Positions 32,403-43,690 of a stretch of DNA of 64,000 nucleotides are shown here, piece after piece. A program made the position numbers and the translations under genes. The first letter of the stretch is position 1. Every line of letters begins with the position of its first letter. The stretch lies in NCBI RefSeq assembly GCF_009914755.1, contig NC_060947.1; one strand, written 5' to 3'. This stretch comes from the human T2T-CHM13v2.0 reference genome, Homo sapiens. A model generated the notes under the pieces. It was not told where the DNA came from. It ran no database searches and worked only from the letters and a program-made list of their open reading frames with translations.

Positions 32403-35400
32403 AGAGCAGTGGTTCTCCCAGCACGGTGTTTGAGCTCTGAGAACGGACAGACTGCCTCCTCAAGTGGGTCCCTGACCCCCACGTAGCCTAACTGGGAGAC
32501 ACCTCCCAGTAGGGGCCGACTGACACTTCATACAGCCGGGTGCCCCTCTGACACAAAGCTTCCAGAGGAAGGATCAGGAAACAATATTTGCTGTTCTGCA
32601 ATGTTTGCTGTTCCGAAGCCTCCGCTGGTGATACCCAGGCAAACAGGGTCTGGAGTGGACCTCCAGCAAACTCCAACAGACCTGCAGCTGAGGGACCTGA
32701 CTGTTAGAAGGAAAACTAACAAACAGAAAGGAATAGCATCAACATCAACAAAAAGGACATCCATACCAAAACCCCACCTGTAGGTCACCATCATCAAAGA
32801 CCAAAGGTAGATAAAACCACAAAGGGAGAAACCAGAGCAGAAAAGCTGAAAATTCTAAAAACCAGAGCATCTCTTCTCCTCCAAAGGATCACAGCTCCTC
32901 GCCAGCAACAGAACAAAGCTGGACAGAGAATTACTTTGATGAGTTGACAGAAGTAGGCTTCAGAAGGTCGGTAATAAGTAACTTCTCCAAGCTAAAGGAG
33001 GATGTTCTAACCCAGCATAAGAAAGCTAAAAACCTTGAAAAAAGATTAGACAAATGCCTAACTAGAATAAACAGTGTAGACAAGACCTTAAATGACCCGA
33101 TGGAGCTGAAAACCATGGCACAAGAACTACATGACATGCATAAGCTTCAGTAGCCTATTCGATCAAGTGAAAGAAAGGGTATCAGTGATTGAAGATCAAA
33201 TTAATGAAATGAAGCGAGAAGAGAAGTTTAGAGAAAAAAGGAGTAAAAAGAAAGGAAGAAAGTCTCCAAGAAATATGGGACTATGTGAAAAGACCAAATC
33301 TACCTTTGATTGTTGTACCTGAAACTGACAGGGAGAAGGGAACCAAGCTGGAAAGCACTCTGCAGGATATTCTCCAGGAGAACTTCCCCAACCTAGCAAG
33401 GCAGGCCAACATTCAAATTCAGGAAATACAAAGAACGTCACAAAGATACTCCTCAAGAAGAGCAACCACAAGACATATAATTGTCAGATTCACCAAGGTT
33501 GAAATGAAGGAAAAATGTTATGGGTAGCCAGAGAGAAAGGTCCAGTTACCCACAAAGGGAAGCCCACCAGACTAACAGCGGATCTCTCGGCAGAAACCCT
33601 ACAGGCCAGGAGAGAGTGGGGGCCAATATTCAACATTCTTAAAGAAAAGAAGTTTCAACCCAGAATTTTATATCCGGCCAACCTAAGCTTCAAAAGTGAA
33701 GGAGAAATAAAATCCTTTACAGACAAGCAAATGCTGAGAGATTTTGTCACCACCAAGCCTGCCTTATGAGAGCTCCTGAAGGAAGCACTAAACATGGAAA
33801 GGAATAACCGGTACCACCCACTGCAAAAACATGCCAAATTGTTTTTTGGTTTTTTTTTTATTTTATTATTATACTTTTAAGTTTTAGGGTACATGTGCAC
33901 AATGTGCAGGTTTGTTACATATGTATACCTGTGCCATGCTGGTGTGCTGCACCCATTAACTCGTCATTTAGCATTAGGTATATCTCCTAATGCTATCCCT
34001 CCACCCTCCCCCCACCCCACAACAGTCCCCAGAGTGTGATGTTCCCCTTCCTGTGTCCATGTGTTCTCATTGTTCAATTCCCACCTATGAGTGAGAACAT
34101 GCGGTGTTTGGTTTTTTTTCCTTGCGATAGTTTACTGAGAATGATGATTTCCAATTTCATCCATGTCCCTACAAAGGACATGAACTCATCATTTTTTGTG
34201 GCTGCATAGTATTCCATGGTGTATATGTGCCACATTTTCTTAATCCAGTCTATCATTGTTGGACATTTGGGTTGGTTCCAAGTCTTTGCTATTGTGAATA
34301 GTGCCGCAATAAACATACGTGTGCATGTGTCTTTATAGTAGCATGATTTATAGTCCTTTGGGTATATACCCAGTAATGGGATGGCTGGGTCAAATGGTAT
34401 TTCTAGTTCTAGATCCCTGAGGAATTGCCACACTGACTTCCACAATGGTTGAACTAGTTTACACCCCCACCAACAGTGTAAAAGTGTTCCTATTTCTCCA
34501 CATCCTCTCCAGCACCTGTTGTTTCCTGACTTTTTAATGATCGCCATTCTAACTGGTGTGAGATGGTATCTCATTGTGGTTTTGATTTGCATTTCTCTGA
34601 TGGCCAGTGATGGTGAGCATTTTTTCCTGTGTTTTTTGGCTGCATAAATGTCTTCTTTTGAGAAGTGTCTGTTCATATCCTTTGCCCACTTTTTGGTGGG
34701 GTTGTTTGTTTTTTTCTTGTAAATTTGTTTGAGTTCATTGTAGATTCTGGATATTAGCCCTTTGTCAGATGAGTAGGTTGCAAAAATTTTCTCCCATTCT
34801 GTAGGTTGCCTGTTCCCTCTGATGGTAGTTTCTTTTGCTGTGCAGAAGCTCTTTAGTTTAATTAGATCCCATTTGTCAATTTTGGCTGTTGTTGCCATTG
34901 CTTTTGGTGTTTTAGTCATGAAGTCCTTGCCCATGCCTATGTCCTGAATGGTAATGCCTAGGTTTTCTTCTAGGGTTTTTATGGTTTTAGGTCTAACGTT
35001 TAAGTCTTTAATCCATCTTGAATTAATTTTTGTATAAGGTGTAAGGAAGGGAGCCAGTTTCAGCTTTCTACATATCGCTAGCCAGTTTTCCCAACACCAT
35101 TTATTAAATAGGGAATCCTTTCTCCATTGCTTTTCTCAGGTTTGTCAAAGATCAGACAGTTGTAGATATGCGGCGTTATTTCTGAGGGCTCTGTTCTGTT
35201 CCATTGATCTATATCTCTGTTTTGGTACCAGTACCATGCTGTTTTGGTTACTGTAGCCTTGTAGTATAGTTTGAAGTCAGGTAGCATGATGCCTCCGGCT
35301 TTGTTCTTTTGGCTTAGAATTGACTTGGCGATGCGGGCTCTTTTTTGGTTCCATATGAACTTTAAAGTAGCTTTTTCCAATTCTGTGAAGAAAGTCATTG

Positions 35401-41400: not shown

Positions 41401-43690
41401 GACAAAAACCACATGATTATCTCAATAGATGCAGAAAAGGCCTTTGACAAAATTCAACAGCCCTTCATGCTAAAAACTCTCAGTAAACTAGGTATTGATG
41501 GAACATATCTCAAAATAATAAGAGCTATTTATGACAAACCCACAGCCAATATCATACTGAATGGGCAAAAACTGGAAACATTCCCTTTGAGAGCTGGCAC
41601 AAGACAGGGATGCCCTCTCTCACCACTCCTATTCAACATAGTGTTGGAAGTTCTGGCCAGGGCAAACAGGCAAGAGAAAGAAATAAAGGGTATTCAGTTG
41701 GGAAAATAGGAAGCCAAATTGTCCCTGTTTGCAGATGACATGATTGCATGTTTAGAAAACCACATTGTCTCAGCCCAAAATATCCTTAAGCTGATAAGCA
41801 ACTTCAGCAAAGTCTCAGGATACAAAATCAATATGCAAAAATCACAACAATTCCTGTACACCAATAACAGACAGAGAGCCAAATCATGAGTGAACTCCCA
41901 TTCACAATTGCTTCAAAGAGAATGAAATACCTAGGAATCCAACTTACAAGGGATGTGAAGGACCTCTTCCAGGACAACTACAAACCACTGCTCAACGAAA
42001 TAAAAGAGGACACAAACAAATGGAAGAACATTCCATGCTCATGGCTAGGAAGAATCAATACCGTGAAAATGGCCATAGTGCCCAAGGTAATTTATAGATT
42101 CAATGCCATCCCCATCAAGCTACCAATGACTTTCTTCACAGAATTGGAAAAAGCTACTTTAAAGTTCATATGGAACCAAAAAAGAGCCCGCATCGCCAAG
42201 TCAATTCTAAGCCAAAAGAACAAAGCCGGAGGCATCATGCTACCTGACTTCAAACTATACTACAAGGCTACAGTAACCAAAACAGCATGGTACTGGTACC
42301 AAAACAGAGATATAGATCAATGGAACAGAACAGAGCCCTCAGAAATAACGCCGCATATCTACAACTATCTGATCTTTGACAAACCTGAGAAAAGCAATGG
42401 AGAAAGGATTCCCTATTTAATAAATGGTGTTGGGAAAACTGGCTAGCGATATGTAGAAAGCTGAAACTGGCTCCCTTCCTTACACCTTACACAAAAATTA
42501 ATTCAAGATGGATTAAAGACTTAAACGTTAGACCTAAAACCATAAAAACCCTAGAAGAAAACCTAGGCAATACCATTCAGGACATAGGCATGGGCAAGGA
42601 CTGCATGACTAAAACACCAAAAGCAATGGCAACAAAAACCAAAATAGACAAATGTTATCTAATTAAACTAAAGAGCCTCTGCAGAGCAAAAGAAATTACC
42701 ATCAGAGGGAACAGGCACCATACAGAATGCGAGAAAAGTTTTGCAATCTACCCATCTGACAAAGGGCTAATATCCAGAATCTACAAAGAACTTAAACAAA
42801 TTTATAAGAAAAAATCAAACAACTCCATCAAAAAGTGGGCGAAGGATATGAACAGACAATTCTCAAAAGAAGACATTTATGCCGCCAACAGACATATGAA
42901 AAAATGCTCATCATCACTGGTCATCAGATAAATGCAAATCAAAACCACAATGAGATACCATCTCACACCAGTTAGAATGGCGATCATTAAAAAGTCAGGA
43001 AACAACAGGTGCTGGAGAGGATGTGGAGAAATAGGAACACTTTTACATTGTTAGTGGGAGTGTAAACTAGTTTAACCATTGTGGAAGTCAGTGTGGCGAT
43101 TCCTCAGGGATCTAGAACTAGAAACACCATTTGACCCAGCCATCCCATTACTGGATATATACCCAAAGGATTATAAATCATGCTGCTATAAAGACACATG
43201 CACACGTATGTTTATTGCGGCACTATTCACAATAGCAAAGACTTGGAACCAACTCAAATGTCCTTCAATGATATACTGGATTAAGAAAATGTGGCACATA
43301 TACACCATGGAATACTATGCAGCCATAAAAAAGGATGAGTTCATGTCCTTTGTAGGGACATGGACGAAGCTGGAAACCATCATTCTGAGCAAACTATCAC
43401 GAGGACAGAAAACCAAGCACCGCATGTTCTCACTCATAGTTGGGAATTGAACTATGAGAACACTTGGTCACAGGGTGGGCAATATCACACACTGGGGCCT
43501 GTTGTGGGGTAAGGGGAGGGGGGAGGGATAGCATTAGGAGAGATATCTAATGTAAATGATGAGTTAATGGATGCAGCAAAGCAACATGGCGCATGTATAC
43601 ATATGTAACAAACCTGCATGTTGTGCACATGTACCCTAGAACTTAAAGTATAACAAAAAATAAATAAAAAATAAAAATAAAAATAAAAAA
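32403..43690 (+). mobile_element. L1PA5/6-like element, 5'UTR-truncated, split into 32403-33841 and 39540-43690; ORF1 and ORF2 disrupted
   Basis: Partial 5'UTR, ORF1 (...HAKL), endonuclease/RT fragments in the ORF track, 3'UTR and A-rich tail. Confidence 0.93.
33842..39539 (-). mobile_element. Near-full-length L1PA3/4-like element (5.7 kb), inserted antisense at the ORF1 stop of the older L1; ORFs disrupted
   Basis: poly-T, 3'UTR, ORF2 (MTGSNSHITILTLNVNGLN...), ORF1 and part of the 5'UTR. TSD aaaacatgccaaattg at 33826-33841 and 39540-39555. Confidence 0.95.

What the first reader, a model, noticed from the sequence alone, without database searches (positions are those of the whole stretch)
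34960..42565. Two inverted L1s of different age share private disabling mutations: apparent two-way gene conversion
Seen: the antisense inner L1 and the older outer L1 form inverted arms of roughly 4 kb. In tract A (inner ~35590-35960, outer ~41570-41940) both carry the same premature stop (IQLGK-tag), the same 4-bp deletion (ataacagacagagagcc), and ETFPL and KRMKY instead of the usual EAFPL and KRIKY. In tract B (inner ~34960-35440, outer ~42085-42565) both carry the frameshift gagaaaagcaatggag plus EKATL and GGIML, and differ at only ~2 positions by hand. Between the tracts (~41950-42080) and outside them the copies differ freely. Knowledge: independent insertions from different subfamilies should not share stops or frameshifts. 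Inference: tract A has older-type diagnostics (tttagaaaac, ttcctatac) and was copied outer-to-inner. Tract B has young diagnostics (aacgccgcatatc, aaacgttagacc) and was copied inner-to-outer, probably later since it has fewer mismatches. This resembles arm-to-arm conversion in an L1-built quasi-palindrome between the two MAGE genes.
Basis: partly seen in the sequence, partly recalled or inferred. Interest (0 to 1): 0.8.

Follow-up and report, generated by a model that had tools for sequence, protein, structure and literature searches.

The report
Gene conversion between nested inverted L1s
A younger L1 retrotransposon that landed backwards inside an older one has since swapped two short stretches of sequence with it, one in each direction, which is a clean but ordinary example of DNA repair copying between nearby repeats.

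Summary
A 5.7-kb minus-strand L1 (33843-39539, perfect 17-bp target-site duplication) sits inside an older plus-strand L1. Their 3' parts form 4.1-kb inverted arms.

Over 3699 ungapped bases the arms are 94.1% alike, and 92.3% outside the tracts. Two stretches stand out:
- **Tract A:** outer 41530-41953, 6 mismatches in 424.
- **Tract B:** outer 42079-42635, 4 mismatches in 557.
- **Between them:** 125 bp with 8 mismatches, which is the normal rate.

Variants that are rare in 54-66 other genomic L1 copies but shared by both arms number 21 in the tracts. There are 4 in the other 2703 bp (p = 3e-9).

The tract-B 4-bp deletion occurs nowhere else in the 3.1-Gb genome. The tract-A stop-bearing 27-mer occurs in two other copies, which lack 10 or 11 of the 13 tract-A variants.

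One claim fails. The "4-bp deletion" at 41870/41871 is a recurrent lesion, found in 771 genomic copies.

The claim that B is later is not significant (p = 0.10-0.23).

This is non-allelic gene conversion between close inverted repeats. It is a known process, so this is a new example. Assembly error and ape orthologues could not be checked.

The parts
32404..33842 (+). Older (outer) L1, 5' piece: part of the 5'UTR, ORF1 and the start of ORF2. It is cut off by the insertion of the inner L1.
   Evidence: 85.3% identical to the 5' part of the inner L1 in reverse complement. Many stops in every frame.
33826..33842 (.). Left copy of the 17-bp target-site duplication AAAACATGCCAAATTGT of the inner L1.
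   Evidence: Identical 17-mer at 39540-39556.
33843..39539 (-). Younger (inner) L1, 5697 bp, with its A-tail at the low-coordinate end. It is already broken outside the tracts: two stops in ORF1 and two in ORF2.
   Evidence: Its nearest genomic relatives are 97% identical.
39540..39556 (.). Right copy of the 17-bp target-site duplication.
39557..43700 (+). Older (outer) L1, 3' piece: ORF2, the 3'UTR and the A-rich tail.
   Evidence: Its nearest genomic relatives are 93% identical.
41530..41953 (+). Tract A on the outer arm. This is the donor side; the tract is old-type.
   Evidence: 6 mismatches in 424 bp against the inner arm. 13 shared rare variants.
35571..35994 (-). Tract A on the inner arm. 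This is the recipient side.
   Evidence: Identity of the inner arm to its own relatives drops to 0.928 here, from 0.944-0.966 in the flanks.
41707..41709 (+). Shared TAG stop in ORF2. The inner-arm copy is at 35815-35817.
   Evidence: 0 of 66 panel copies carry it. The 27-mer around it has 4 genome matches: the two arms plus two unrelated copies.
41864..41880 (+). Shared 4-bp-short form, with the junction between 41870 and 41871 (inner arm 35653/35654). It is a recurrent lesion in a run of four-base units, not a private one.
   Evidence: 771 genome matches of the short form against 6661 of the long form. 2 of 38 copies in the unbiased panels.
41954..42078 (+). Unconverted stretch between the tracts (inner arm 35446-35570).
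   Evidence: 8 mismatches in 125 bp: 5 rare in the outer arm only, 1 rare in the inner arm only, and no shared rare variant.
42079..42635 (+). Tract B on the outer arm. This is the recipient side; the tract is young-type. The firm part is 42153-42526. The right edge lies at 42569 or 42635.
   Evidence: 4 mismatches in 557 bp, or 2 in 491 bp up to 42569. Young-type states at 42194, 42317, 42349, 42389 and 42526.
34889..35445 (-). Tract B on the inner arm. This is the donor side.
42380..42412 (+). Shared private 4-bp deletion, between 42391 and 42392 (inner arm 35132/35133), together with the neighbouring private substitution at 42401.
   Evidence: 0 of 66 panel copies carry it. The 33-mer matches only the two arms in 3.1 Gb.

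Best explanation
The arms have exchanged sequence by non-allelic (intrachromosomal or sister-chromatid) gene conversion, that is, homologous repair that copies one inverted arm onto the other.

Sequence of events:
- An older L1, truncated at its 5' end, lay on the plus strand.
- A younger L1 inserted into it in the opposite orientation by ordinary target-primed reverse transcription, leaving a 17-bp duplication. This made two pairs of inverted arms.
- A stretch of about 350-420 bp of the decayed old copy was later copied onto the young copy. This is tract A. It brought a stop codon and a 4-bp-short form with it.
- A stretch of about 370-560 bp of the young copy was copied onto the old copy. 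This is tract B. It brought the young copy's own 4-bp deletion with it.

Shown here: the nesting, the two tracts, the shared rare variants, and the opposite polarity.

Inferred: the repair mechanism; whether there was one event or two; and the idea that the first tract, by creating about 400 bp of perfect identity, eased pairing for a second event next to it.

Rough dating from the mismatches inside the tracts, using a recalled mutation rate of 0.5-1e-9 per site per year:
- Tract A: about 7-14 million years.
- Tract B: about 2-7 million years.
Both have wide Poisson limits.
For: - Nesting and the perfect 17-bp duplication.
- The arms are 94.1% identical over 3699 ungapped bases, but 98.6% in tract A and 99.3% in tract B. 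Binomial probabilities against the outside rate are 6e-9 for A and 1e-14 for B. The 288-bp identical run exceeded all 20000 permutations.
- 21 shared rare variants lie in 981 bp of tracts and 4 in the other 2703 bp, p = 3e-9. There are none in 32900-33842 and 1 in 39557-40100.
- The tract-B deletion 33-mer is unique to the two arms in the genome.
- The only other two copies that carry the tract-A stop 27-mer share 2 and 3 of the 13 tract-A variants and are 93-94% identical. No third copy in this genome could therefore have been the donor.
- The best other genomic match to 41400-42800 is 94% identical, against 97% for the inner arm.
- Polarity: rare-variant load, informative sites and the similarity table.
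- The process is documented for other transposable elements. Passages read in PMC6598467 report raised rates between copies less than 10 kb apart and hotspots on the sex chromosomes.
- Inverted L1 pairs recombine in human genomes, producing inversions (passages in PMC9675761).
Against: - Only one assembly was available, with no reads, no second haplotype and no ape orthologue. Neither event is dated by phylogeny, and assembly or polishing error is not excluded.
- One shared lesion (41870/41871) is recurrent and carries no weight.
- Four shared rare variants lie outside the tracts (40499, 40850, 42708, 43060). They are unexplained, or are chance parallel changes.
- At 42725, 42742, 42847 and 42982 the inner arm carries 'old-type' states in a region where the arms otherwise differ freely. 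The 12 copies used as inner-like are therefore not a perfect stand-in for the inner element's own subfamily. This weakens the informative-site argument for tract A, though not the rare-variant load argument.
- The panels are small: 12, 26 and 28 copies. One of them (L003-L030) was biased by the way it was chosen.
Confidence: 0.85

Rival explanations
1. There was one recombination event, not two. A single double-strand-break repair intermediate had heteroduplex DNA on both arms (a double Holliday junction, or heteroduplex on opposite sides of the break). Mismatch repair then went towards the old copy on one side and towards the young copy on the other, and restored the originals in the 125 bp between.
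For: The tracts are only 125 bp apart. Their internal mismatch densities do not differ significantly (p = 0.10-0.23). That repair models allow heteroduplex on both partners is recalled textbook knowledge, not tested here.
Against: The point estimate for A (1.4%) is two to three times that for B (0.4-0.7%). The stretch where the break would lie shows no conversion in either direction, whereas break-proximal sequence is usually converted (recalled).
Confidence: 0.25
2. It is an assembly or polishing artefact. Reads from one arm were used to correct the other, giving false local identity.
For: None was found. The idea is raised only because a single assembly was seen and the arms lie 6-8 kb apart.
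Against: The tracts are not perfectly identical (6 and 4 mismatches). They have opposite polarity with an untouched 125 bp between them. The arms differ by 7.7% around the tracts, which long accurate reads tell apart easily (recalled; not tested).
Confidence: 0.03
3. There was no exchange. The shared variants are subfamily features, recurrent hot-spot changes or chance, and the high identity reflects a conserved part of ORF2 (the reverse-transcriptase core).
For: One shared lesion is indeed recurrent, with 771 copies. The stop-bearing 27-mer recurs in two unrelated copies. Tract A covers the conserved FADD motif region.
Against: In tract A, 13 rare variants are shared, 8 of them in 0 of 66 other copies. 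In tract B, 8-9 rare events are shared, 5 of them in 0 of 66, including a deletion unique in the genome. In the same stretches the panel copies are only 92-96% identical to either arm. Conservation therefore does not explain 98.6-99.6% identity between the arms.
Confidence: 0.02

Closest known systems
Non-allelic (ectopic) gene conversion between nearby transposable-element copies, as described for Alu and for Y-chromosome LTRs
   Same: Mosaic subfamily-informative sites, clusters of shared derived variants, short tracts, copies less than 10 kb apart, and a sex-chromosome location. These features are given in passages of PMC6598467, which cites Aleshin and Zhi 2010, Kass 1995, Roy 2000 and Trombetta 2016.
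   Different: Here the partners are two L1s, one nested in the other in inverted orientation. Two adjacent tracts run in opposite directions, and what was transferred is disabling lesions in dead copies.
Arm-to-arm gene conversion in X and Y chromosome palindromes
   Same: Inverted arms on a sex chromosome in a region of testis-expressed multicopy genes (MAGEB6 and MAGEB6B), with intrachromosomal copying between the arms. The general description is in a passage of PMC13616518, citing Rozen 2003 and others.
   Different: Palindrome arms are long and nearly identical along their whole length. The thresholds, arms over 8 kb and over 99% identity, are recalled. Here the arms are 4.1 kb and 94% alike, and only about 1 kb is homogenised. 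The arms arose by a nested insertion, not by duplication.
Inversions mediated by inverted L1 pairs (transposable-element-mediated rearrangements)
   Same: The substrate is the same: L1s in opposite orientation a few kb apart that recombine by homology (passages of PMC9675761).
   Different: That study reports crossover products (inversions), with a median identity of 97.1% between the L1s. Here the order of the parts still fits the simple nested insertion with its duplication in place, so the outcome is non-crossover conversion at 92-94% background identity.

Membership tests
Non-allelic gene conversion tract | A local stretch of much higher identity between paralogous copies, bounded by normally diverged flanks | tested here: met
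   98.6% and 99.3% in the tracts against 92.3% outside. Binomial p = 6e-9 and 1e-14. Permutation test: 0 of 20000.
Non-allelic gene conversion tract | Derived variants shared by the two copies and absent from other members of the family | tested here: met
   13 shared rare variants in A and 8-9 events in B. Whole-genome pattern counts are 2 for the tract-B 33-mer and 4 for the tract-A 27-mer. One lesion fails this test, with 771 copies.
Non-allelic gene conversion tract | Inside the tract a copy resembles the other lineage rather than its own | tested here: met
   Similarity table and informative sites.
Non-allelic gene conversion tract | The state before conversion is seen in an orthologue or another haplotype | not testable with these tools
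   No ape or second human assembly could be reached.
Sex-chromosome palindrome | Long arms with near-identity along their whole length (recalled thresholds: over 8 kb, over 99%) | tested here: not met
   Arms are 4153 columns at 93.35%. Only about 1 kb is above 98%.
Nested L1 insertion by target-primed reverse transcription | Target-site duplication flanking the insert, an A-tail at its 3' end, and the host element continuous across the insert | tested here: met
   Perfect 17-bp duplication. A T-rich run at 33843 onwards on the plus strand. The outer L1 is collinear with the inner L1 across the junction.

The most novel reading that the evidence does not exclude
The two adjacent tracts of opposite polarity, with an untouched 125 bp between them, are the footprint of one human germline recombination intermediate with heteroduplex on both partners. 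Alternatively, they are the first steps of a self-reinforcing process: each conversion creates perfect identity that seeds the next, gradually turning a nested L1 pair into a true palindrome in a region of testis-expressed multicopy genes. The mosaic identity of the flanking MAGEB6B/MAGEB6 direct repeats hints that the whole interval recombines often.
Probability: 0.2. Interest if true: 0.5.

Novelty: new member of a known kind. Interest (0 to 1): 0.3.

Why it matters
The locus shows at base resolution that dead L1 copies a few kb apart keep exchanging sequence, and that they do so in both directions.

- **Dating and classification.** Exchange can mislead subfamily assignment and age estimates based on divergence. 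Here about 7% of the young copy looks old, and about 10% of the old copy's 3' piece looks young.
- **Recombination studies.** It gives a well-bounded natural substrate for studying tract length and polarity of intrachromosomal conversion at about 92% identity on the X chromosome.
- **Method.** Shared frameshifts are not safe markers on their own. One of the three here recurs in 771 copies.

It does not change what is known about the mechanism.

Tried and rejected
- **Biased panel.** The first panel, L003-L030, was chosen with the mosaic query itself. All 28 of its copies carried the 4-bp-short form. This first suggested that the form was the normal sequence. Panels chosen with queries outside the region and whole-genome counts showed the bias. 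The panel was kept only for rarity counts.
- **Third-copy donor.** Rejected. The only other carriers of the stop 27-mer (on contigs C7 and C24) share 2 and 3 of the 13 tract-A variants. The tract-B 33-mer has no other carrier.
- **Conversion in the other arm pair and the rest of the 3' arm.** No shared rare variants in 32900-33842 and 1 in 39557-40100. The 118-bp identical run at 42930-43047 is within the permutation range, whose mean longest run is 98 bp.
- **PRDM9-type 13-mer as a local hotspot.** There is none in the tracts. The window has 5 matches, the nearest at 34001-34013.
- **GC-biased transfer.** By hand count, tract A has 6 weak-to-strong and 6 strong-to-weak changes among its 13 variants, so there is no bias.
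- **Absence of indels between the arms over 3.7 kb.** This looked odd at first. Most of the 39 outer-like matches also span exactly 1501 bases of a 1501-base query, so it is not unusual for this part of L1.
- **Literature.** Searches listed no paper on this L1 pair. The library is partial, so this is weak evidence that the locus is undescribed.
- **Subfamily names (L1PA numbers).** Not assigned, because no repeat library was available.
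Full report
**What is there**

The window holds an older plus-strand L1 in two pieces, about 32404-33842 and 39557-43700. 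It is split by a 5697-bp minus-strand L1 at 33843-39539.

The insert is flanked by a perfect 17-bp duplication, AAAACATGCCAAATTGT, at 33826-33842 and 39540-39556. Its T-rich tail lies at the low-coordinate end. This is an ordinary nested insertion.

It creates two pairs of inverted arms:
- 33838-37977 against 39539-43684: 93.35% identity over 4153 columns.
- 32403-33842 against 37959-39377: 85.3% identity.

From outer 39917 to 43615 the arms align without any gap. Inner position equals 77524 minus outer position.

Both elements are broken in many places. The inner one has two stops in ORF1 and two in ORF2 outside the region of interest. From recall of the L1 5'UTR, both also lack the start of the 5'UTR. 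This was not tested against a reference.

**The observation**

Identity along the 3' arms is far from uniform. Over the 3699 ungapped bases there are 217 mismatches.

| Stretch (outer coordinates) | Mismatches | Length (bp) |
|---|---|---|
| Outside the tracts | 199 | 2593 |
| Tract A, 41530-41953 | 6 | 424 |
| Between the tracts, 41954-42078 | 8 | 125 |
| Tract B, 42079-42635 | 4 | 557 |
| Tract B if it ends at 42569 | 2 | 491 |

Against the outside rate of 7.7%, the binomial probabilities are 6e-9 for A and 1e-14 for B. The stretch between the tracts is ordinary (p = 0.37).

The longest identical run is 288 bp. In 20000 random placements of the 217 mismatches the longest run never exceeded 254 bp.

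The exception is that ttcctatac is intact only in the inner arm.

**Are the shared changes private?**

I drew three panels of other L1 copies from the same genome:

| Panel | Loci | How chosen |
|---|---|---|
| First panel | L003-L030 (28 copies) | Query 41400-42800, the mosaic region itself |
| Outer-like | L032-L060 (29 copies) | Query outer 40000-41500; 93% identical |
| Inner-like | L061-L072 (12 copies) | The top 12 of the 39 non-self matches to inner 36024-37524; 97% identical |

For 41450-43000, 66 copies could be used. L032, L049 and L056 were dropped for short coverage.

Variants shared by both arms and found in at most 6 of the 66 copies:
- 13 in tract A.
- 9 events in tract B.
- None in the 125 bp between the tracts.
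- One (42708) in 42636-43000.

Over the whole 3' arm, with 54 panel copies (L011, L025 and L056 dropped) and a 6% threshold, there are 13 in A, 8 events in B and 4 elsewhere (40499, 40850, 42708, 43060). The binomial p is 3e-9.

In the other arm pair, with 22 of the 29 outer-like copies usable, there are none in 32900-33842 and one in 39557-40100.

Whole-genome exact counts:
- The 33-mer across the tract-B 4-bp deletion occurs only in the two arms.
- The 27-mer with the tract-A stop occurs in the two arms and in two other copies. Those two share only 2 and 3 of the 13 tract-A variants and are 93-94% identical.

**The claim that fails**

- The short form has 771 exact matches in the genome, against 6661 for the long form.
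- It is present in 1 of 26 outer-like and 1 of 12 inner-like copies.
- It lies in a short run of four-base units, so recurrent slippage is a likely cause. That is an inference.

All 28 copies of the first panel carried the short form. The genome search is seeded by rarer words and so favoured copies sharing the query's own oddity. This is a methodological warning.

**Direction**

*Rare-variant load.* Outside the tracts the outer copy carries rare variants at 3.6% and the inner copy at 1.0% (90 and 25 in 2484 bp).
- Tract A has 13 shared rare variants in 424 bp. 15.4 are expected for an outer donor and 4.3 for an inner donor. The Poisson probability of 13 or more at the inner rate is 5e-4, and the log10 likelihood ratio is 2.4 for outer.
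- Tract B has 8 in 557 bp. 20.2 are expected for an outer donor and 5.6 for an inner donor. The probability of 8 or fewer at the outer rate is 0.002, and the log10 likelihood ratio is 1.9 for inner.

*Informative sites*.
- In A both arms carry states frequent in outer-like copies and rare or absent in inner-like ones. At 41835 the counts are 20/26 against 0/12. At 41752 they are 10/26 against 0/12. At 41667 they are 20/26 against 4/12. At 41854 they are 5/26 against 0/12.
- In B both arms carry the states of the inner-like copies. At 42317 the counts are 12/12 against 3/26. At 42389 and at 42526 they are 12/12 against 4/26. At 42194 they are 9/12 against 5/26. At 42349 they are 7/12 against 2/26.

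*Mean identity to the 12 inner-like copies*.
- Inner arm: 0.944, 0.966 and 0.956 in the three unconverted stretches, but 0.928 in A.
- Outer arm: 0.904, 0.934 and 0.899 in those stretches, but 0.958 in B.

*Caveat.* At 42725, 42742, 42847 and 42982 the inner arm carries 'old-type' states in a region where the arms otherwise differ freely. The inner-like panel is therefore not an exact model of the inner element's subfamily. The rare-variant load argument does not depend on it.

**Timing, and one event or two**

Mismatches inside the tracts give 1.4% for A and 0.4-0.7% for B. These do not differ significantly (one-sided p = 0.10 to 0.23).

With a recalled rate of 0.5-1e-9 per site per year, the point estimates are about 7-14 million years for A and 2-7 million years for B. 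The limits are wide.

A single event with heteroduplex on both partners cannot be excluded. I give it about one chance in four.

No PRDM9-type motif lies in the tracts. The 13 tract-A changes show no GC bias (6 against 6, hand count).

**Mechanism**

The best reading is homologous repair of a break in one arm, using the inverted partner 6-8 kb away on the same chromatid or its sister, and resolved without crossover.

The order of the parts still fits the simple nested insertion. A crossover would have inverted the spacer and displaced one copy of the duplication.

It is an inference that the first tract, by making about 400 bp of perfect identity in arms otherwise 92% alike, favoured a second event beside it.

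**Comparison with what is known**

- Passages read in PMC6598467 describe non-allelic gene conversion between transposable-element copies. It was detected by mosaic subfamily-informative mutations and clusters of shared derived alleles. Rates were raised for copies less than 10 kb apart, with hotspots on the sex chromosomes.
- Passages in PMC9675761 show that L1s in opposite orientation mediate inversions by homology. The median identity between the L1s was 97.1%.
- A passage in PMC13616518 summarises arm-to-arm conversion in X and Y palindromes. It also reports two MAGEB6 copies in human, chimpanzee and gorilla.
- A passage in PMC13192797 names gene conversion and recombination among the processes that blur L1 history.

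The present locus is a new example of this known process. It is not a palindrome in the accepted sense, because only about 1 kb of the 4.1-kb arms is homogenised.

Searches listed no description of this particular pair, but the library is partial.

**Limits**

- Only one assembly was seen. Reads, other human haplotypes and ape orthologues could not be reached. An assembly artefact is unlikely, given the residual mismatches, the opposite polarity and the untouched 125 bp, but it is untested.
- Subfamily names were not assigned, for want of a repeat library.

**Verdict**

The interpretation as two-way conversion is supported. One of the three lesions is not private, and the order of the two transfers is not established. 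The case is ordinary in kind and tidy as an example.

Noticed in passing
window 16035-23345 and 49000-56606: The MAGEB6B/MAGEB6 direct duplication is a sharp mosaic. The first 837 bp of the coding part (17914-18750) differ at 103 sites (12.3%). The last 387 bp (18751-19137) differ at 11 sites (2.8%). The 3' flank 19649-21748 differs at 30 of 2100 sites (1.4%). The upstream part is only 81% alike. This suggests conversion, or parts of unequal age, between the direct repeats, with a switch near 18750.
   Followed up: partly
window 50510-50807: A 300-bp fragment of an L1 3' end, 95% identical to the inner L1's 3' end (33857-34157) and in the same orientation, lies in the MAGEB6 intron. It is absent at the matching point of the MAGEB6B copy (17554/17561), so it was inserted after the duplication.
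   Followed up: no
window 41864-41880, and genome-wide: The four-base-unit run in L1 ORF2 (the long form reads ...CAGACAAACAGAGAGCC...) has lost one unit in 771 genomic copies, against 6661 with the long form. A second short form (…CAGACAAACAGCC…) was seen in 5 of the 28 copies of the first panel. This is a recurrent frameshift hotspot in decaying L1s.
   Followed up: partly
search behaviour: The whole-genome DNA search is seeded by rarer words. Its best hits were therefore enriched (28 of 28) for a variant of the query that only about 10% of copies carry. Comparison panels need to be chosen with a query outside the region under test.
   Followed up: yes
window 40499, 40850, 42708, 43060: Four isolated rare variants are shared by both arms outside the two tracts, in stretches where the arms otherwise differ freely. 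They may be chance parallel changes or very short conversion patches. This is undecided.
   Followed up: no
G000:C7:108828130-108828156 and G000:C24:6423247-6423273 (L073, L074): Two unrelated L1 copies carry the same stop codon plus the neighbouring substitution as tract A. They share only 2 and 3 of the 13 tract-A variants. I take this as coincidence among many thousands of copies.
   Followed up: yes
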